Part shown: in pieces, positions 2,254 to 21,247 of the stretch
How positions within the stretch are numbered: the first letter of the stretch is position 1
Layout: the number at the start of each line of letters is the position of its first letter
IMG/VR virus record: IMGVR_UViG_2547132415_000014
Coordinates: 1 to 21,879 of that record
Direction: 5' to 3' (one strand)
From: a virus
Lineage: Duplodnaviria; Heunggongvirae; Uroviricota; Caudoviricetes
Length of the DNA: 21,879 nt
Translations under genes and position numbers: made by a program
Notes under the pieces: model-generated
The model's input: the letters and a program-made list of their open reading frames with translations, nothing else
What the model was told of the DNA's origin: nothing
The model's database searches: none

Positions 2254-2796
2254 ATGAATTATCCAACTATCGTTGACGGCATTGATTTCAAAGAACTGGT
2301 TTTTATTACCAACAATGACCCTGTCACCGATTCATTTATGGTGGCGAAAGCATTTCGTAAGCGACATGACAACGTTGTGCGTGATGTAGAAAGAACTATC
2401 GCTGCTTGTCCTGAAGAGTTTGATACAAAACTCAATTTTGAGGTTTGCTATAAAAACAATGAGTTACAGAATGGTAAGCCACAAAAATTCTATCGGCTAC
2501 GTAAGGATGGGTTGATGCTTTTGGTTATGTCCTACACCAAAAAAGAAGCAATGCGGATCAAAATTGCTTACATCAACGCATTCAACTGGATGTACGCCAT
2601 GCTTCAGGTTGGTCATCGTCAATTTGAAGAAGAGAGAAATGCCGTAATGCTGGAGTACATGAAAGAGAAGGATGTTGCCAGCATGTCAGGCCGCCTGCTT
2701 AATCGCTGGGGAAAAATTAAGAAGCCTCAGCTACTGGCGAGAATTGAACGCCTTGAACAGCACGGGCAAACCGTAATCCCCGGACTCACCAATTAA
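2254..2796 (+). CDS. Rha-family phage regulatory protein
   Basis: 180-aa product with the Rha-domain signature region (DSFMVAKAFRKRHDNVVRDVERTI) near the N-terminus; accessory position between lysis and terminase genes. Confidence 0.75.
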   Translation: MNYPTIVDGIDFKELVFITNNDPVTDSFMVAKAFRKRHDNVVRDVERTIAACPEEFDTKLNFEVCYKNNELQNGKPQKFYRLRKDGLMLLVMSYTKKEAMRIKIAYINAFNWMYAMLQVGHRQFEEERNAVMLEYMKEKDVASMSGRLLNRWGKIKKPQLLARIERLEQHGQTVIPGLTN

Positions 2797-2954: not shown

Positions 2955-3326
2955 ATGAACGACCAGCAAATCGAAAAAGAAATCGTTGAGAAAGGCAAAA
3001 CCGCTCCGCGAGTTACCCCGCAGCACATCGAAGACGTGATTAAAAGCGAGCATTGCTTCACCGCATACGATGGTATTGGCGGAGAGGGCGCTATGGCGAC
3101 ATACAAATCCGCGCTTGATTTAACCGAAAGTCAGGAAGCATTAAAGCTTCTTACATTCTGCGTCCTGGTGCTGCGCAACGGCTTCACCGTCACCGGCGAA
3201 AGTGCCTGCGCCAGCCCGGAAAACTTCGACCCGGAGATCGGTCGCAAGATCGCCCGCGAAAATGCTGTAAACAAAATCTGGATGCTCGAAGGTTACTTGC
3301 TGAAGCAGAAACTAAGCGAACAGTAG
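2955..3326 (+). CDS. hypothetical phage protein, Gp49/Sf6-gp66-like (function unknown)
   Basis: 123-aa ORF with coding-like composition; recalled resemblance to the small uncharacterised family found just upstream of terminase genes in P22-like phages (GFTVTGESACASPENFDPEIGRKIA...). Family call unverified. Confidence 0.55.
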   Translation: MNDQQIEKEIVEKGKTAPRVTPQHIEDVIKSEHCFTAYDGIGGEGAMATYKSALDLTESQEALKLLTFCVLVLRNGFTVTGESACASPENFDPEIGRKIARENAVNKIWMLEGYLLKQKLSEQ

Positions 3327-13737: not shown

Positions 13738-14430
13738 ATGTTATATGCATTTAAGCTGGGCAGAAAACTGCGCGGCGAGGAACCTTATTGTCCTGAAAAA
13801 GGCGGGAAAGGTGGCTCCGATAAAAGCGCAAAGTATGCAGCAGAAGCCCAGAAGTATGCCGCAGACCTGCAAAATCAGCAGTTCAACACCATCATGAACA
13901 ACCTGAAACCGTTTACTCCTCTGGCTGAGAAGTATGTCGGCAGCCTCGAGAACTTATCGTCTCTGGAGGGGCAAGGTCAGGCGCTTAACCAGTATTACAA
14001 CTCTCAGCAGTACAAAGACCTTGCTGGTCAGGCGCGCTATCAGAGTCTGGCGGCAGCGGAAGCAACAGGTGGATTGGGTTCCACCGCAACCAGTAATCAG
14101 TTAGCAACAATCGCACCAACGCTTGGTCAGCAGTGGCTGTCTGGTCAGATGAACAACTACCAGAATCTGGCAAATATTGGTCTTGGCGCGCTTCAGGGGC
14201 AGGCAAATGCCGGGCAAACATATGCCAACAACATGAGCCAGATTTCACAGCAAAGCGCGGCACTGGCGGCGGCAAACGCTAATAGACCTTCCGGCCTTCA
14301 ATCTGCAATAGGCGGGGCTGCCTCTGGAGCAATTGCTGGAGCACAACTTGGCAGCATTGTTCCTGGTATTGGTACTGGTATTGGTGCCGCTGTTGGTGGC
14401 GGTCTTGGTCTGCTTGGCTCGTTGTTTTAA
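13738..14430 (+). CDS. ejection protein (P22 gp7-like) with Gly/Ala-rich hydrophobic C-terminus
   Basis: 230 aa beginning MLYAFKLGRKLRGEEPYCPEKGGKGGS; Gln/Asn-rich middle and GxxxG-rich C-terminal tail; position in the 7-20-16 ejection block. Confidence 0.85.
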   Translation: MLYAFKLGRKLRGEEPYCPEKGGKGGSDKSAKYAAEAQKYAADLQNQQFNTIMNNLKPFTPLAEKYVGSLENLSSLEGQGQALNQYYNSQQYKDLAGQARYQSLAAAEATGGLGSTATSNQLATIAPTLGQQWLSGQMNNYQNLANIGLGALQGQANAGQTYANNMSQISQQSAALAAANANRPSGLQSAIGGAASGAIAGAQLGSIVPGIGTGIGAAVGGGLGLLGSLF

Positions 14431-14439
14431 GGGGTAATC

Positions 14440-15915
14440 ATGGCTACGTGGCAACAGGGTATTAATTCTGGTGGTTTTCTGGCTGGCATCGGTACGCAAA
14501 ATGAGAATGCGCCAAAGGCAAGCGACATTAACGCAACGCTTGGTCTGATCCGCGAAAACAATGAATTGGCTCGATCAGGTGCAAATAACGTTGGTCTGAC
14601 CGCGTTACGTGGTCTGGCTGGAGTTGCTGATATTTATAAGCAGGAACAGCAACAGAAAGCTATTAGGGCGTTCAATAAGGTTCACGCTGATGCATGGGCT
14701 TCTGGTGATCCATCGGGACTATTTAAGTTTGCCAAGGAAAATCCAGCGTTTGTTGCACAGGCACAACAGGCGTTTTCCGGTCTTAATGAGCAGCAACGTA
14801 ACGATATGGGCGATTTAGCCATGAGGGCTAACGTCGCTCTTTCTCAGGGACCGGAAGCCTACAGTAAATTCATTACTGACAACAAGGACAGGTTAAATCG
14901 CGTTGGCGCTAATGCTGACTGGATGATTCAGACAGGTATTCAGAATCCAGAGCAGCTATCACACATGCTGACTACTATGTCTCTCGGTGCGCTTGGACCA
15001 GAAAAGGCGTTTGCTGTTCAGGACAAGATAGCTGGTCGTGAGATTGACCGAGGCAGACTGGCAGAGACAATCCGCAGCAATCAGGCCAGCGAAGCACTTC
15101 AGGCGAGAGGGCAGGATATTAGCCGAGCAAATGCGTTAACGTCAGCATATGCACCAACAGCCGCAATGCAGAATTACAATCAGTACGCGCAAATGTTAAA
15201 GGCGGATCCAGATGGTGCAGCGGCATTTGCGGCAGCGGCGGGAATTAATCCCAATGCTAAGAAATTACTTAAGGTTGAAACCAATCCTGATGGCTCGGTA
15301 ACTAAGTATTACACCGATGGCAGCGAGGAAGCAGGAAAACTAAACCAACCTATATCTGGTGATGGCATTAAACCAATTAGTTTGCCACAAGCGCAAAGCA
15401 TCATAGATAAGGCTAATGAGGGTTCCAAGAAGGCGGCAGGATTTGCTTTGCGATTAAAAGATTCAATGGACTCAATGAATCAGCTTAGTAAAAGCATTGA
15501 CCCTAAGCGAGTTGCATTAATAAATCGCTCTCTTGGTGATGGGACTATTGCAAATTTAAGCCTATCACCAGCGGAGCAGCAATATATGGTAAATGCGAGA
15601 GACGCCTTGTATGCAATTTTGCGCCCAGAAACAGGTGCAGCAATTACTCTGCCAGAGATGCAGGAGTATTCCAAAATGTACCTGCCTCAGCCCGGTGATT
15701 CCAAGGCTGCTACTGAAACAAAAATGCGAAAAATGCAGGGCCAATATAACTCATTACGTGGTCAGTCTGGTCGCGTTTATGATGCTTTGGTGGTTTCAAG
15801 TGCTGCAAATAGTCAACAACAGAGCAATAGCCAACAACCGACAAATACCCAACAGCAGCAGAGTCAATCCGGATCATATACCTCAAAATCAGGCATTCAA
15901 TTTACGGTGGAATGA
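14440..15915 (+). CDS. ejection protein (P22 gp20-like)
   Basis: 491 aa; second gene of the ejection block; Q/S-rich low-complexity C-terminal tail. Confidence 0.85.
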
Positions 15916-17753
15916 TGAAAGTAACTGCAAACGGTAAGACATTTACCTTCCCTGATGGTACGAGCACGGAAGATATTGGCACCGCCATTGATGAGTATTT
16001 TGCTGGTCAGGCTGTTCAGCAACAAACAGTTAATCAGGCCAATAATGAACCAGCACGTGAAGAACCATCATTGATGCAACAAGCTGGCGATTGGCTCACA
16101 GGTGGTCAAAGTGCAGGGCAAATTGCAGAGCAGGCTGGTCGTGGTCTGGTAAACATACCATTTGACGTATTGCAGGGTGGCGCAAGTCTGATTAATGCAA
16201 TCAGTCAGGGGCTTGGTGGGCCAAAAGTTTTGGATGATGTTTATCGTCCTGTAGATAAACCGACAGACCCATACGCACAAGCCGGTGAAACAATTGGTGG
16301 GTATTTAGTTCCAGGAGTTGGAACGGCAGGAAGCATGGCTATTGGATCGCTGGCAGAGGCCGCAAATCAGAAAGGCGATTTCGCACAAAATGCAGCTAAA
16401 AATGCCGGAGTTAACCTTGCCGCTCAGGGTGTTCTTTCCGCAGCAGCAAAGGGAATAGGGCGTGGAATAACGGCTATAAAAGGTGATATTGCGCCAGAAG
16501 TGGCGAAGAAAATTGCCACATCAGAATCGATGGGCGTGACACCAATGACATCTGATGTTATCCCGCCGAAAAATGCTTTCACTCGCGGCCTTACTCAGGA
16601 TGCCGAGGGGGCTTTGCTCGGGACGGGCTCAAAGCGAGCAGAGCAATATGCAACGCGTAGTAAGCTGGTAAGCAATTATTTTGACCGTTTTGGTGAGTAC
16701 AACCCTGATGATGTGGTGAAATCTCTGACCACCACGTTAAGGGGGCGGAAGGATGCTGCTGGCGCTGTTATCAATGACGTCACCAATAAAATGGGTAATG
16801 CCGCAGTTGATACTACAAATACCATGAATGCTCTGAATACAGCGATCGCAAGACAGGAACGGCTTGGGACTTCAGCCAATCAAAGCCTGCTTACATCCTT
16901 GCGTAACCTGCGTGAAGAATTAGCAAACCCTGCAACTGATTTGGATGTTACGTTTGATCTCTTGCGTCAGCACAGAACAGCATTTAGATCTAATGTTCAG
17001 GGAGATGCTATGGTCTTCCCCAACCAGGCAAAAGCAGCTACCAATATGGTAGAGAATGCAATGTCAAAAGACCTTCGTAACGCAGTTGCAAAAAACCTCG
17101 GTGCGTCAGACGCAGCAAAATACCTTAAAGCAAATTCCGATTATGCAAACGTTTATAATAAGGTGCTTAATAAAAACATTGCTAACAAGCTCAACAAGGC
17201 AAGCAGTGAAGCCAGTCCTGAACTTATAAATACTGTTGTATTAAGCAGAAAACCATCTGACGTGAAACGAATCTGGAGCGCATTGGATGATAAAGGGAAA
17301 GATGCTATGCGTGCAGCTTACGTCAGCAAAATAGCGGAAAAGGCCGGTGACTCTCCAGCCAAGTTCATCACTGAAGTTAATAAGCTGAAATCTCAGTCAG
17401 GCGGTGAAATTTACAACACTATTTTTTCTGGAAAGCACATGAAAGAGCTTGATTCTCTTCATGAAGTTCTAAAGCAAACAGCAAGGTCAGACACCGCAAA
17501 TGTAGTAACTCAGACGGGGCAATCGCAAGCCAACCGGATAAGGACGATTGGCGCAACTGCGACTCTTGGCGTATCAATGGGGCTTGAGGCTGGCTTTGGT
17601 GCAATGATGCGTTTGTATGAGTCTAAAGCAGCAAGAAACATGCTTCTCCGCCTTGCAAACGTCAAGCCTGGAACTCCGGCATATGAGCGAGCGTTAAATC
17701 AGGCTGCTAACGCCGTTCGCCCTCTCCTAACTAACGAAGCTACCAGGCAGTAG
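15912..17753 (+). CDS. ejection protein (P22 gp16-like)
   Basis: 613 aa beginning [38 protein letters not shown], recalled as P22 gp16-like; start overlaps the gp20 stop (the true start may be the second ATG at 15915). Confidence 0.9.
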
Positions 17754-17772: not shown

Positions 17773-18102
17773 CTATTTAATTCTCTTTTCAATGGCTGCA
17801 ATTATTGCTTTTCCTGATGTTTCAGGAGATTTTGTAGCCATATAAGACGAAAAAATCATGTCGGTCATTCTTTCATAACTTACTATTTCCCACTTAGCCA
17901 ATGCATGGGACAGTTTGTAGTTGTCATCAGTTAGTGCCCTTATGGAATTTTTTAAGTGTTTATTCTCTTCTGTTAATCGCGCAATTTTTGTATCAATTTC
18001 ATGTGAGCGATCTAATTCCTTAACCTGTTTCTTGAGGGCAGCTAACCCTGCATATAGTACGCAACAGGATATCCCAAGAGCGAGTACGACTATTTCTAAC
18101 AC
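17773..18102 (-). CDS. small bitopic membrane protein: N-terminal TM helix plus coiled-coil domain (function unknown)
   Basis: GTG start at 18102 with a strong SD AAGGAGG 5 nt upstream (plus-strand cctcctt 18108-18114); product MLEIVVLALGISCCVLYAGLAAL then a heptad-like KKQVKELDRSHEIDTKIARLTEENKHLKNSIRAL; AT-rich. The 181-aa ATG-extended version looks like antisense junk. Confidence 0.6.
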   Translation of the reverse strand: MLEIVVLALGISCCVLYAGLAALKKQVKELDRSHEIDTKIARLTEENKHLKNSIRALTDDNYKLSHALAKWEIVSYERMTDMIFSSYMATKSPETSGKAIIAAIEKRIK

Positions 18103-18132
18103 ACCAACCTCCTTAGTTTTTCGCAGGATACC

Positions 18133-18498
18133 ATGAAAAAAGTTAACATTGGAAACGTACCAAAGATGCTCGTTCCGCTCTTTGAGAGCGGTACAATTGT
18201 GTTTTGTAGAGACTTTCCAGAATGGCAACGCCTGCATCAAAAACTTGGTGTGGACGTGCAGGACTCGGATGCCAACGGAGCGTCTCATACAATGAGCAGC
18301 GAGAATGGTGTTTTGCATGTGATAGGCGTGTTCAATGGCAAACTATCTACTATTGCCCATGAGTGCGCTCACATGGCATTCGATATCTGCTCAAGGGTCG
18401 GTGTTGATGTTGAACCAGGAAGAGCCAACGAGACTTACTGCTACTTAATGAGCAGGCTTGTTGAGTTCTGCGAGCGACATATCAAAAAGCCGGAGTGA
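18133..18498 (+). CDS. HExxH zincin-like small protein, possible minimal ImmA/IrrE-type metallopeptidase (function unknown)
   Basis: 121 aa; motif TIAHECAHMAF followed about 14-20 residues later by E...ANE...YLM, a pattern recalled from M78-type peptidases; SD-like agga 5 nt before the ATG. Start codon uncertain (internal Met alternatives exist). Confidence 0.55.
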   Translation: MKKVNIGNVPKMLVPLFESGTIVFCRDFPEWQRLHQKLGVDVQDSDANGASHTMSSENGVLHVIGVFNGKLSTIAHECAHMAFDICSRVGVDVEPGRANETYCYLMSRLVEFCERHIKKPE

Positions 18499-18506
18499 CC
18501 CGGCTT
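18487..18506. terminator. candidate bidirectional terminator hairpin (aagccgg-agtgac-ccggctt) between the HExxH gene and the YjzC-like gene
   Basis: 7-bp stem flanked by an A-run on one side and a T-rich stretch on the other, so it reads as a hairpin plus U-tract on both strands (better on the minus strand). Confidence 0.45.
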
Positions 18507-18511
18507 GATTA

Positions 18512-18691
18512 TTACTTTTTGCTGTCTGGAGTTCGCTTATCTAATACCCAGCCATGACCTGGCTTTGTTGTTGGTGGAAGCCTTTCGTTGTCCTTGACGG
18601 TGGCAAAATTGTCTTTCTTACCGCCGCGCGGGCCAACTTCTTGGTATATTCCGCCGTTTTTTCCTGTGTTTTCACCTGGTTTTTTCGCCAT
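18512..18691 (-). CDS. YjzC-like small protein (59 aa)
   Basis: ATG at 18691 preceded by gaggt; product MAKKPGENTGKNGGIYQEVGPRGG...LPPTTKPGHGWVL shows the KPGE/NGGIY/LPPT pattern recalled for the YjzC family; own promoter candidate upstream. Confidence 0.6.
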   Translation of the reverse strand: MAKKPGENTGKNGGIYQEVGPRGGKKDNFATVKDNERLPPTTKPGHGWVLDKRTPDSKK

Positions 18692-18727
18692 GATATACCT
18701 CAACATACACCCGTTATTGGGCGATTA

Positions 18728-18783: not shown

Positions 18784-18805
18784 CCCACCGTCAGGTGGGT
18801 TTTTT
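18784..18805. terminator. bidirectional intrinsic terminator (cccacc-gtca-ggtggg) flanked by A5 upstream and T6 downstream
   Basis: Perfect 6-bp GC stem; T6 on the + strand (18800-18805) and ttaattttt on the - strand; the hairpin overlaps the mnt stop codon. Confidence 0.7.
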
Positions 18806-19042
18806 GTACAAATCCTTCAGCGTATCAAACACCATCTTCTTAACAAGTTCGGACTGCTCATCAGCGATGCGTTCCGCATCGTCTCGATAGCCTGAAATTT
18901 TGGATGGCTTTGATACAGCATCAGTCACTATCTGAACTAATTCTGAATTAAGAGAGCGGCCATTGGATTTGGCTCGCTGTTTTAGTTTTTCCTTTAATTC
19001 GTAAGGTAGCCGCAGATTAAATTGCGGGTCATCTCTTCCCAT
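18791..19042 (-). CDS. mnt: Mnt repressor (ribbon-helix-helix, Arc/Mnt family)
   Basis: 83-aa product MGRDDPQFNLRLPYELKEKLKQRAKSNGRSLNSELVQIVTDAV...DAERIADEQSELVKKMVFDTLKDLYKKPT, recalled as closely matching P22 Mnt; leftward orientation as in P22 immI. Confidence 0.9.
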   Translation of the reverse strand: MGRDDPQFNLRLPYELKEKLKQRAKSNGRSLNSELVQIVTDAVSKPSKISGYRDDAERIADEQSELVKKMVFDTLKDLYKKPT

Positions 19043-19101
19043 TCTTGATGCCTCGCTTTTGTGAGTGGATCGGCATCTTATTATCTGCTGGTTGCATCCT
19101 C

Positions 19102-19124
19102 AATAAGACCACAGTGGTCGTATT
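19102..19124. promoter_or_regulatory. candidate Mnt operator: near-perfect palindrome centred on 19113 (core GACCACAGTGGTC)
   Basis: 13-bp perfect palindrome 19107-19119 extended to about 21 bp with one mismatched pair; lies in the mnt-tailspike intergenic region, where O_mnt sits in P22. Confidence 0.55.
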
Positions 19125-19189
19125 TTTTTGATTAATAATGCATCACTGTGGCAATGATGCGGCGATTCCTTGTATCTGGAGCAAATTAA

Positions 19190-21247
19190 ATGACAGACAT
19201 TACAGCCAATGTTGTAGTGAGTATGCCTTCGCAACTCTTCACTATGGCTCGTTCTTTTAAAGCCGTAGCCAATGGCAAAATTTATATCGGTAAAATTGAC
19301 ACTGACCCAGTAAATCCTGAAAACCAGATTCAGGTTTGTGTGGAGAATGAAGACGGTTCTCACGTTCCTGTTTCGCAACCAATAATCATTAACGCTGCTG
19401 GATATCCGGTATATAACGGACAGATTGCCAAGTTCGTAACTGTGCAAGGCCATTCTATGGCTGTTTATGATGCGTATGGTGCACAGCAGTTCTATTTTCC
19501 TAATGTGCTGAAGTATGACCCGGATCAGTTAAGACAAGAGTTAGCAACAGAGGGTAATGAAATACTTGTTGACGACTCCCGTATTGCAGTTAAAAGTGTT
19601 CATGTAAATTCAAAACTTAGAACCCAGCACAATAAAAACGCAGAAATAATCACGCCAAATGATTTTATATCAAATTATGACATGATATCTGCAGCTATTA
19701 ACTCTGGAGATAGTGCCGCAGTATTTAATTCCAGGTATGCATTCACAATAACAGTTGGGGAATATGGTAATTTTAAATCTATTAGTGATGCTCTAAACTC
19801 AGCTGTTGCACTGCGTCCACTATGGAAAAATGGCATTGATTTTTGCATAATTAAAATTCTTTCCGGTTTTGTGCTCAATGAGCAAATAGAAATTTCAGCA
19901 GGATGTGACTTATCATGGATTAAAATAATATCAGAAGACTCAGTGGTTTTCTCTGATACCAGTTTGTTTACTAAAACTGTTAGGACGTATTACGAATACA
20001 AATATTTATTTTACATTTGCGATGCAGCAAAAAGTCCTGTATTTGCTATTCAGATTGAAGAAAATAGAGATGATAGCGATGTTTGTGCATTTATTGTAAC
20101 TCAAAAAGCTGAACTTAATTTCTATCCGTATTCAGGTGCTCGAAAGTTCTACGTTGGAATTCATGGTAGCTTTGGTGCAAAAATTAGTGCATATCATACC
20201 GGATGTGCTCCTGATGAGGAAAGTGTTGCTGCATATATGCCAGAAGGGTATTACGTATGTGATTTTTCTTATAGCAGATACTCTTCCCTGCAACTGGTAA
20301 ATAATGTCAAGGCATCAATGCCTGTAAGCAAGTTTGAACGGTGCACAGAGAGTACGGTTGCGTCAGTTAATTGTATTTATAATGTTAAAGCAGATTTTCA
20401 GGGGTCAAGTGCAAGCTATTGTTATATAGGATGGAATGTAAGAGATGGTTCAAATGTTAATATACGCGACCATAAAACTATACATTGCTCATATCGTGGA
20501 TTAACCTGCATTCATACAGCATATGTTGATGCAAGACGACATGACGTTGAAGAAAGTGATGCAGAAACAAGTGGTAAAGTCCTTGAACCAAATATTGAAA
20601 AAGGTTTTTATGGATGTGCACTTGGTGTGCGTATTGATGGTGCGGGTTGTGTTGATGTTGCTGGTAATGATATGCGCAATTGTGGAACAGCCGTTAATGC
20701 AGACACTGGTGCTGTTATTTCAGGAAAGGCTGTAGATATCTCAGGGGCTGAGTTGGGATTTGATTGCCATGCAGGAGCATCTGTTAATTTTCCAAGGCTA
20801 TGGGGTACAGATATAAAAAAATTAATGCACCTCCAAGATGGTGTAAGGTTTAACTCTAATATTTGTCATGTATTTGGTGCAAATCCCACAAAAGATATTA
20901 GATGGATTGATGTAGAGAGATCTGAAGCTTCTTTTATGAATGCAACGCTGGATGCAGATTCAGGATTTATTGCCGACTGTGGTAGTAGGATAACCATTGA
21001 AGGAAGTAAAGTTAAAAACCAAACAATAAGAAGTTTTTTTGGATCACATGTGGCTATAAATAATACTGTTGCTGACAGAACTTATTCAGATATAGCCGAT
21101 GTTCCGCAGTTGACTATTAGTGGAGGATCTTTTATTTCTGCTACAGGATATTCTAATTCTGACTCCAGCCCTCTTAGGTTGAGCACAACACGAAATACAC
21201 TTGGAGTTGGAGGAGCCATATTTTCAACCAATGGGGAAGTTTCATGA
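19190..21247 (+). CDS. tailspike protein: P22 gp9-type N-terminal head-binding domain fused to an unrelated beta-helix-like receptor-binding/depolymerase domain
   Basis: First ~110 aa ([34 protein letters not shown]...NVLKYDPDQ) recalled as P22 tailspike head-binding domain; the rest is unrelated, AT-rich, Cys-rich (~20 Cys) and Asn/Ser/Gly-rich. Confidence 0.9.

What the first reader, a model, noticed from the sequence alone, without database searches (positions are those of the whole stretch)
18133..18498. Small HExxH protein that may be a minimal ImmA/IrrE-type metallopeptidase replacing Ant
The 121-aa product carries TIAHECAHMAF and, about 14-20 residues later, E...ANE...YLM, resembling the HExxH plus downstream Glu and AN...LM pattern of M78 peptidases that inactivate repressors by cleavage. 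It is unusually short for that family and is not paired with an HTH repressor gene. If active, it could be a protease-type antirepressor or an anti-defence factor sitting where Ant normally is. The start codon is uncertain because the divergent gene's start is only 30 bp away.
Basis: inference. Interest (0 to 1): 0.65.

Follow-up and report, generated by a model that had tools for sequence, protein, structure and literature searches.

The report
Conserved small HExxH phage protein HkcC
The ORF is a real, strongly conserved P22/HK620 gene (hkcC, function unknown) from a large family of ~120-residue phage proteins with an invariant zinc-protease-like HExxH...E signature; it is not an ImmA/IrrE (M78) protease and it does not replace the Ant antirepressor.

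Summary
It is gene hkcC, 100% identical in protein to the copies in HK620 and P22, and catalogued only as "unknown" (PHROG 1365). It is a real gene: 81 near-identical copies show 25 synonymous against 5 non-synonymous polymorphic sites. An exhaustive profile search finds 551 clusters, almost all 105-140 aa. In 123 diverse members H76, E77 and H80 are invariant and E100 is kept in 122. The spacing HExxH-x19-(N)E equals that of thermolysin.

"Replacing Ant" is wrong. P22 carries hkcC together with arc and ant, and 30 of 80 related loci have both. hkcC also lies on the far side of mnt.

The gene reads in the same direction as the late operon, and only 20-33 bp upstream of it are conserved. Distant relatives sit between the lysis and terminase genes, or among early genes of lytic podophages.

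Best reading: a stand-alone minimal zinc metallohydrolase, probably a peptidase, with an unknown target.

The parts
18133..18498 (+). hkcC coding sequence (121 aa), member of PHROG 1365
   Evidence: ORF; 100% aa identity to HK620 hkcC and to P22; phrog_1365 at 1.4e-39; 25 synonymous against 5 non-synonymous polymorphic sites, and all 37 alleles intact.
18358..18372 (+). Codons H76-E77-C78-A79-H80 (HExxH), in predicted helix 71-88
   Evidence: Invariant in 123/123 diverse members and in A3. Helix assignment.
18427..18444 (+). Codons N99-E100-T101-Y102-C103-Y104: putative third metal ligand E100 at the start of helix 100-117, with the conserved N99, C103 and Y104
   Evidence: E100 122/123, N99 92/123, C103 100/123, Y104 118/123. 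E100 lies 20 residues after H80, the same spacing as thermolysin H146-E166. The ungapped profile match 69-114 to 135-180 has E about 1.
18125..18128 (+). Shine-Dalgarno-like AGGA, 4 nt before the hkcC ATG
   Evidence: Sequence. Lies in the ~20 bp before the ATG that stay near-identical in the related loci.
18100..18132 (.). Conserved 20-33 bp junction. It holds the start codon and AAGGAGG Shine-Dalgarno of the leftward gene (minus strand) and the hkcC RBS. Sequence conservation with other phages ends here.
   Evidence: identity to the window breaks 20-33 bp upstream of the ATG in 71 of 81 sequences; homology to P22 starts at about window 18099.
18133..18163 (-). Position equivalent to the annotated P22 sieA promoter, inside hkcC codons 1-11. 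It drives the leftward cassette gene.
   Evidence: BK000583 annotates the sieA promoter at 13861-13891, which is the first 31 nt of the hkcC ORF. Assigned here by homology only; the consensus scan found no strong -35/-10.
18487..18506 (.). Bidirectional stem-loop terminator overlapping the hkcC stop codon (tORF59A / mnt terminator)
   Evidence: One search finds it on both strands. Annotated in HK620 and in P22.
17773..18102 (-). Context: hkcB homologue (109 aa, GTG start, one predicted TM segment plus coiled coil) in the slot that sieA occupies in P22
   Evidence: phrog_8100 match 1-109/109 begins at residue 73 of the long ORF. HK620 annotation. Cassette analysis.
18512..18706 (-). Context: orf59a/hkcD homologue (64 aa), convergent with hkcC
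   Evidence: phrog_3202 at 1.3e-31. P22 annotation.
18791..19042 (-). Context: mnt (Arc/Mnt-type RHH repressor). No arc or ant follows.
   Evidence: PF03869 at 2.8e-22 and PF11423 at 2.2e-18. Only 147 bp separate mnt from the tailspike gene at 19190.

Best explanation
hkcC encodes a cytoplasmic, single-domain protein of about 120 residues that represents an uncharacterised phage family (PHROG 1365). Most likely it is a minimal gluzincin-type zinc metallohydrolase, probably a peptidase.

Inferred mechanism: His76 and His80 on helix 71-88 and Glu100 at the start of helix 100-117 hold one Zn2+. Glu77 is the general base that activates the metal-bound water. The strand 59-66 and the GVF(N/D)G turn just before the HExxH helix would bind an extended peptide. 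Asn99 and Tyr104 would support the site.

Expression: the gene has no conserved promoter of its own and reads in the same direction as the late operon, between gene 16 and gene 9. It is therefore probably made late in lytic growth from antiterminated late transcripts.

It is an accessory (moron-type) gene, independent of the Mnt/Arc/Ant circuit. Its substrate is unknown; my guess is a host or competing-phage protein.

Shown: the gene is real and under purifying selection; the motif is invariant across the family; the fold is confidently predicted; the genomic positions are as stated. Inferred: metal binding, catalysis, peptide substrate, late expression.
For: Real gene: 25 synonymous against 5 non-synonymous polymorphic sites in 37 alleles, all intact.

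Large family: 551 clusters at E<=1e-3, nearly all 105-140 aa. All 131 aligned members hit phrog_1365.

Invariant H76, E77, H80 and E100, plus G49 and Y104. These are also kept in homologues from Autographiviridae and Schitoviridae.

AlphaFold with 131 sequences: pLDDT 93.8, pTM 0.86, element order strand-strand-helix-strand-strand-helix(HExxH)-helix(E100). From established knowledge of zincin architecture, this is the order backing helix, active-site helix, glutamate helix.

The only sub-threshold PDB sequence hits of the full-length profile are zinc metallopeptidases. The thermolysin match is ungapped and places H76/E77/H80/E100 on H142/E143/H146/E166.

Expression: only 20-33 bp upstream are conserved, and at least 10 unrelated leftward genes abut the gene. 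The region lies inside the single-promoter late operon (PMC8022706). Relatives lie on the late-operon strand between lysozyme/Rz and terS.

Against: The predicted domain lacks the lower sub-domain that most zincins use to close the cleft.

There is no expression or proteomic evidence. The curated P22 record BK000583 does not annotate the ORF at all.

HExxH also occurs in non-peptidase hydrolases and hydroxylases; two members gave weak hits to an aKG-HExxH hydroxylase model.
Confidence: 0.55

Rival explanations
1. ImmA/IrrE-type (M78) protease that inactivates a repressor (Mnt, C2 or LexA) by cleavage and substitutes for the missing Ant.
For: HExxH plus a downstream Glu and an A-N dipeptide loosely recall the M78 signature. 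The window lacks arc and ant.
Confidence: 0.04
2. Catalytically inert zinc-binding, or merely HExxH-bearing, small protein that acts by binding a partner. For example, it could inhibit or sequester a host protein as an anti-defence or host-takeover factor, with the metal site purely structural.
For: The domain is very small, has no lower sub-domain and has no significant fold neighbour. It lies in accessory or early-gene positions typical of host-directed phage proteins. The extra conserved Cys103, and C78/C86 in the hkcC subgroup, could serve structure.
Against: The general-base Glu77 is as invariant as the two His (123/123). A purely structural site would not require that. The whole HExxH-x19-NE catalytic signature is retained across clusters below 50% identity.
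Confidence: 0.2
3. Metal-dependent hydrolase or other enzyme acting on a non-peptide substrate, such as a nucleotide-derived signal or a cell-wall or lipid-linked compound, rather than a peptidase.
For: HExxH is not exclusive to peptidases; there are weak hits to an aKG-HExxH hydroxylase model. No peptidase family is matched significantly. Many members lie next to lysis genes.
Against: The combination HExxH plus NE at the thermolysin spacing, on consecutive helices preceded by a beta-strand, is the peptidase-type arrangement. All weak PDB hits of the full-length profile are peptidases. There is no signal peptide or TM segment for an envelope role (sequence).
Confidence: 0.15
4. Not a functional gene. 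On this view the segment is conserved only as DNA: the sieA-type promoter at one end, a bidirectional terminator at the other, and a homologous linker for cassette exchange.
For: The curated P22 records leave it unannotated and place the sieA promoter and the mnt terminator on it. The flanks are mosaic while the segment stays 99-100% identical.
Against: The 25:5 synonymous to non-synonymous pattern with no disrupted allele. 551 homologous clusters in unrelated genomic positions and in lytic phages. A confident fold prediction.
Confidence: 0.02

Closest known systems
Thermolysin-type gluzincins (MEROPS clan MA(E), e.g. M4 thermolysin; also M9 collagenases and M3 oligopeptidases)
ImmA/IrrE metallopeptidases (MEROPS M78, Pfam PF06114)
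   Same: Small cytoplasmic HExxH proteins of mobile elements with a downstream Glu ligand. This is a functional analogy only.
   Different: No profile or fold match. The downstream motif differs in order and spacing. There is no adjacent HTH repressor gene. Family members occur in strictly lytic phages.
Minigluzincins (proabylysin/projannalysin) and other minimal zincins (Zincin_1/DUF1025, e.g. PDB 3e11)
PhageMetallopep (Pfam PF18894), the putative phage metallopeptidase found immediately downstream of family members in 20 of 79 loci
   Same: A phage-encoded HExxH protein in the same lysis-to-terminase interval.
   Different: About 210 aa. hhalign probability is 1.6% and only the HExxH helix aligns. 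It is absent from the window.
hkcC of HK620 / unannotated ORF of P22 / Orf129 of ST64T and L (PHROG 1365)
   Same: Identical protein in HK620 and P22. 38-40% identical paralogue in ST64T, L and epsilon34. All are listed as 'unknown' (PMC2629481; PMC4837284).
   Different: Nothing differs: this is the same gene. No function or motif is attached to it in the sources I read.

Membership tests
ImmA/IrrE (M78, PF06114) | Significant match to the family profile | tested here: not met
   No PF06114 hit for the query at E<=1. None among 131 family members at E<=0.01. No NCBIfam ImmA/IrrE model hit.
ImmA/IrrE (M78, PF06114) | Fold of the IrrE/ImmA zincin domain | tested here: not met
ImmA/IrrE (M78, PF06114) | Encoded next to, and acting on, a cognate HTH (Xre/ImmR-type) repressor | tested here: not met
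   The neighbours are hkcB, orf59a and the RHH repressor Mnt on the opposite strand. Relatives sit between Rz and terS, or among early genes of lytic phages.
ImmA/IrrE (M78, PF06114) | Site-specific cleavage of a repressor | not testable with these tools
   Needs co-expression or in-vitro cleavage assays.
Gluzincin-type zinc metallopeptidase (clan MA(E)) | HExxH on a helix with an invariant general-base Glu | tested here: met
   H76, E77 and H80 are invariant in 123/123 members and lie in helix 71-88.
Gluzincin-type zinc metallopeptidase (clan MA(E)) | Third ligand Glu on the following helix | tested here: met
   E100 is kept in 122/123, preceded by N99 in 92/123, and is the first residue of helix 100-117. 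The spacing equals thermolysin's. That it is a ligand is inferred.
Gluzincin-type zinc metallopeptidase (clan MA(E)) | Zincin fold (mixed sheet, backing helix, active-site helix) recognisable by structure comparison | tested here: inconclusive
Gluzincin-type zinc metallopeptidase (clan MA(E)) | Significant sequence homology to a defined peptidase family | tested here: not met
   PDB profile hits are all at E>=0.16. Pfam gives only 2/131 weak SprT-like and 1/131 DUF5700 hits.
Gluzincin-type zinc metallopeptidase (clan MA(E)) | Zn2+ binding and metal-dependent hydrolysis | not testable with these tools
   Needs biochemistry.
PHROG 1365 / hkcC family | Full-length match to the family profile | tested here: met
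   phrog_1365 at 1.4e-39, residues 1-121 on 3-120/127. All 131 aligned members match. 100% identical to HK620 HkcC.
P22 immI antirepressor module (Ant) | Homology to Ant, or occupation of its position downstream of arc under Pant/Mnt control | tested here: not met
   There is no similarity to Ant. hkcC lies left of orf59a-mnt and coexists with ant in P22 and in 30 of 80 loci.

The most novel reading that the evidence does not exclude
PHROG 1365 (HkcC) could be a previously unrecognised family of metallopeptidases with a stripped-down fold of about 120 residues and no close solved relative. On this reading, temperate lambdoid phages (late or moron positions) and lytic podophages (early positions) use it to cleave a specific host protein, for example a defence or envelope-stress factor. 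That would make an unannotated ORF of the model phage P22 a new class of phage counter-host enzyme.
Probability: 0.25. Interest if true: 0.65.

Novelty: new variant of a known kind. Interest (0 to 1): 0.42.

Why it matters
P22 and HK620 are reference phages, yet this ORF is missing from the curated P22 annotation and has no function anywhere.

This work shows that it is under strong purifying selection. It belongs to a family of more than 500 clusters and carries an invariant catalytic-type HExxH-x19-NE signature on a confidently predicted fold with no significant solved neighbour. That gives a concrete, testable hypothesis: a minimal zinc hydrolase, with E77A as the key mutant. The gene sits in a genetically tractable system.

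If confirmed, it would add a new minimal metallopeptidase family and probably a new phage-host interaction.

The result also corrects a tempting mis-annotation. Small HExxH phage proteins should not be filed as ImmA/IrrE or as antirepressor substitutes on motif resemblance alone.

Tried and rejected
- **Family libraries.** Pfam, NCBIfam and PADLOC scans of the query gave only noise, such as lantibiotic models.
- **PDB sequence searches.** The close-homologue profile gave 0 hits. The broad profile gave only E>=0.16. A C-terminal sub-profile, built to print the thermolysin alignment, instead ranked RNase A fusion chains first and was uninformative.
- **PhageMetallopep.** hhalign of the family against the neighbouring PhageMetallopep cluster gave probability 1.6%, so they are not related.
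- **Longer family members.** Ten members of 155-283 aa were scanned for fused domains. None was found.
- **Window ORF 2955-3326.** I suspected it was the second-site paralogue. It is not: BLASTP E is 9.3 and it is a Gp49/Sf6-gene-66 family protein.
- **M78 control.** A regex search for M78-type ORFs in all fetched loci, to build a control profile, found none.
- **Literature.** A search for 'hkcC' alone returned almost only unrelated acronyms. The P22 pid ORFan papers concern a different locus, between orf25 and orf80. A search for phage HExxH anti-defence proteins found nothing relevant. The phage L proteomics supplement is not held.
- **Locus scans.** The genome-contig scan with the close alignment returned only 11 gammaproteobacterial loci, which I did not analyse further.

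Full report
**1. What is at the coordinates**

The window is the late region of a P22-like (Lederbergvirus-type) phage or prophage. From left to right the region holds:
- gene 16, at 15912-17753 on the + strand;
- a 109-aa leftward gene, at 17773-18102;
- the target ORF, at 18133-18498 on the + strand;
- a 64-aa leftward ORF, at 18512-18706;
- mnt, at 18791-19042 on the - strand;
- the tailspike gene, from 19190.

**2. Identity**

The protein is 100% identical to HK620 HkcC and to the corresponding ORF of P22 and of dozens of Salmonella phages. HK620 annotates it as hkcC, 'unknown'. UAB_Phi20 does likewise (PMC4837284). [quoted passage not shown]

Two P22 records (BK000583, AB362338) do not annotate it. 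BK000583 instead places the sieA promoter on its first 31 nt and the mnt terminator on its 3' end. It matches PHROG 1365, 'unknown function', over its full length. Part of this region is found in 1065 of 5426 complete E. coli genomes, where the ORF is called 'hypothetical protein'.

**3. Is it a gene or only conserved DNA?**

I extracted 81 copies, 80 from IMG/VR loci plus the window. They comprise 37 nucleotide alleles with 30 polymorphic sites. Of these, 25 are synonymous and 5 non-synonymous (the latter in 3 codons), and every allele is intact. That is strong purifying selection on this reading frame.

The four polymorphisms in codons 1-11 are all synonymous. AGGA lies 4 nt before the ATG at 18133, and the last ~20 bp before the ATG, which include it, are near-identical in the loci examined. 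The annotated start is therefore well supported. The 181-aa ATG-initiated ORF on the minus strand that overlaps hkcC is an artefact. The real leftward gene is the 109-aa hkcB homologue, which starts at GTG 18102 behind AAGGAGG.

**4. The family**

A word-indexed search found only 32 mostly close relatives. An exhaustive profile search of 1.84 billion representatives found 551 clusters at E<=1e-3 and 152 at E<=1e-10. Nearly all are 105-140 aa.

In 123 full-length members, conservation is as follows (alignment A3):

| Residue | Members retaining it |
|---|---|
| H76, E77, H80 | 123/123 |
| E100 | 122/123 |
| G49 | 122/123 |
| Y104 | 118/123 |
| G90 | 112/123 |
| L105 | 111/123 |
| F67 | 110/123 |
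| C103 | 100/123 |
| N99 | 92/123 |

The signature is HExxH-x19-(N)E-x3-Y. No member matches Pfam M78. Only 2 of 131 give weak SprT-like hits and 1 gives DUF5700. NCBIfam and PADLOC give nothing meaningful. All 131 match phrog_1365.

**5. Structure**

- With 19 sequences AlphaFold gave pLDDT 83.
- With 131 sequences it gave pLDDT 93.8 and pTM 0.86, with all five models agreeing.
- The elements are strands 11-13 and 21-25, helix 28-37, strands 49-56 and 59-66, helix 71-88 (HExxH) and helix 100-117 (E100 first).

From established knowledge of zincin architecture, this order is that of a minimal gluzincin: sheet, backing helix, active-site helix, 'glutamate helix'.

Structure comparison does not confirm the assignment statistically:
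- M9 collagenases, M3 oligopeptidases and the 'predicted zincin-like metalloprotease' 3e11 sit among unrelated folds at the same scores.
- Foldseek against PDB gave a best E of 0.16.
- No IrrE/ImmA chain appears anywhere.

The full-length profile searched against PDB sequences returns only zinc metallopeptidases, all at E 0.16-1: myroilysin, astacins, peptidyl-Lys endopeptidase and thermolysin. The thermolysin match (69-114 on 135-180) is ungapped. It therefore superposes H76/E77/H80/E100 on H142/E143/H146/E166 (the ligand identities are textbook knowledge). This is suggestive but not significant.

I could not measure the site geometry because model coordinates are not exposed.

**6. Genomic logic**

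(a) **Ant.**
- P22 carries hkcC together with mnt, arc, sar and ant.
- Among 80 viral contigs with 99-100% identical HkcC, 30 have an ant homologue, always to the right of mnt, and 50 do not.
- hkcC is therefore independent of Ant and is not in Ant's position.
- In the window that position is a 147-bp spacer.

(b) **Promoter.** Upstream conservation stops 20-33 bp before the ATG in 71 of 81 sequences. Beyond it lie at least 10 unrelated leftward genes, nearly all encoding small proteins with predicted TM segments: SieA, HkcB and others. There is thus no room for a conserved hkcC promoter.

The gene reads with the late operon, which has a single promoter in P22 and runs through this region to gene 9 (PMC8022706). 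Terminator-like hairpins flank it at 17810-17829 and 18487-18506. I infer expression from antiterminated late transcripts.

(c) **Relatives.**
- A 38-40% identical paralogue (Orf129 of ST64T/L, gene 70 of epsilon34) and the mEp021-type homologues lie between Rz and the small terminase gene.
- In 79 diverse viral contigs the member is on the late-operon strand, downstream of lysozyme/Rz and upstream of terS, terL and portal. It is followed by DUF2560 in 25 loci or by PF18894 PhageMetallopep in 20.
- hhalign shows PhageMetallopep is unrelated to the family.
- Homologues that keep H/E/H/E/Y also occur in a Pseudomonas autographivirus, between the ligase and RNA polymerase genes, and at the head of a rightward block of small hypothetical genes, divergent from the terminase genes, in a schitovirus.
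- No HTH repressor, toxin or other constant partner accompanies the family.

**7. Interpretation**

The invariance of the two His, the general-base Glu and the downstream Glu across clusters below 50% identity argues for a functional metal-dependent active site rather than a chance motif or a purely structural one. So does their placement on two consecutive helices after a beta-hairpin.

I therefore favour a minimal stand-alone gluzincin-like zinc hydrolase, probably a peptidase. It would be made late in temperate lambdoid phages and early in lytic podophages, and would act on an unknown host or competitor target (confidence about 0.55).

Rivals:
- an inert binder that uses the motif structurally (0.2);
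- a hydrolase of a non-peptide substrate (0.15);
- 'not a gene' (0.02, refuted).

**8. Comparison and novelty**

As a sequence feature this is an already catalogued ORF (hkcC, PHROG 1365). I found no statement of its HExxH signature or of any function in the papers read.

It works, if at all, like a gluzincin. Membership in any defined peptidase family fails the profile tests, and the fold test is inconclusive. It is best described as a possible new minimal variant of the zincin theme. Interest is moderate.

Noticed in passing
window 18100-18163, and L007-L086 at the equivalent position: The 5' end of hkcC acts as a fixed 'socket' for a swappable leftward gene. Sequence identity between phages ends 20-33 bp upstream of the hkcC ATG, exactly at the shared AAGGAGG-N5-GTG of the leftward gene. 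At least 10 unrelated small proteins, nearly all with 1-4 predicted TM segments or a signal-like N-terminus (SieA, HkcB and others), occupy that slot. Presumably all are driven by the sieA-type promoter that P22 annotation places inside hkcC codons 1-11. These may be alternative superinfection-exclusion or defence cassettes.
   Followed up: partly
window 17773-18318 (-): the ORF listing reports a 181-aa ATG ORF that overlaps hkcC by 186 bp. The real gene is the 109-aa HK620 hkcB homologue (phrog_8100, full-length match from residue 73), which starts at GTG 18102. It has one N-terminal TM segment followed by a coiled coil and sits where P22 has sieA.
   Followed up: partly
window 18791-19189: mnt is intact but arc, sar and ant are absent, as in SE1 and ST160. 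Upstream of mnt an imperfect palindrome, TCAATAAGACCACAGTGGTCGTATT (about 19100-19124), resembles the P22 Mnt operator TCAATAGGTCCACGGTGGACCTGTATT but has changed half-sites. It is followed by a T-run. It could be a variant operator for an orphan Mnt, a terminator, or both.
   Followed up: partly
window 18512-18706 (-): The orf59a/hkcD homologue (64 aa, Gly/Lys-rich; phrog_3202) gives a sub-threshold match to Pfam YjzC (E 0.0017, below the gathering score). Its function is unknown. It is co-oriented with mnt and ends at the bidirectional terminator that overlaps the hkcC stop codon.
   Followed up: no
L087-L166 (e.g. L105 5355-5993): In 20 of 79 diverse viral contigs the HkcC-family gene is followed within 4 bp by a 212-aa PF18894 'putative phage metallopeptidase' (HELYH). 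In 25 contigs it is followed by a DUF2560 protein. The two HExxH proteins are unrelated by hhalign (probability 1.6%), but their tight adjacency might indicate a shared function.
   Followed up: partly
L003 3501-3890 (ST64T Orf129); also phage L and epsilon34 gene 70: A second, 38-40% identical paralogue class of the family sits between Rz and dec/terS. Several phages (ST160, SE1, UAB_Phi20, Phi75) show two matching places per genome, so they may carry both paralogues. The second places were not inspected.
   Followed up: partly
window 2254-2796 (+) and 2955-3326 (+): The lysis-to-terminase interval of this window does not hold an HkcC paralogue. It holds a Rha-family regulatory protein (Phage_pRha plus ORF11CD3 domains) and a Gp49/Sf6-gene-66 family protein.
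   Followed up: partly
proteins P0027 and P0030: Two database proteins join an HkcC part to foreign domains: P0027 to PF10548 (P22 antirepressor C-terminal domain) and P0030 to PF04492 (Phage_rep_O). They are probably recombination or assembly chimeras rather than true fusions.
   Followed up: no
window 17810-17829 (+): A weak terminator-like hairpin (3 G-C pairs) lies just after the gene 16 stop, inside the 3' end of hkcB. Together with the hairpin at 18487-18506 it would insulate hkcC from transcription that is not antiterminated.
   Followed up: no
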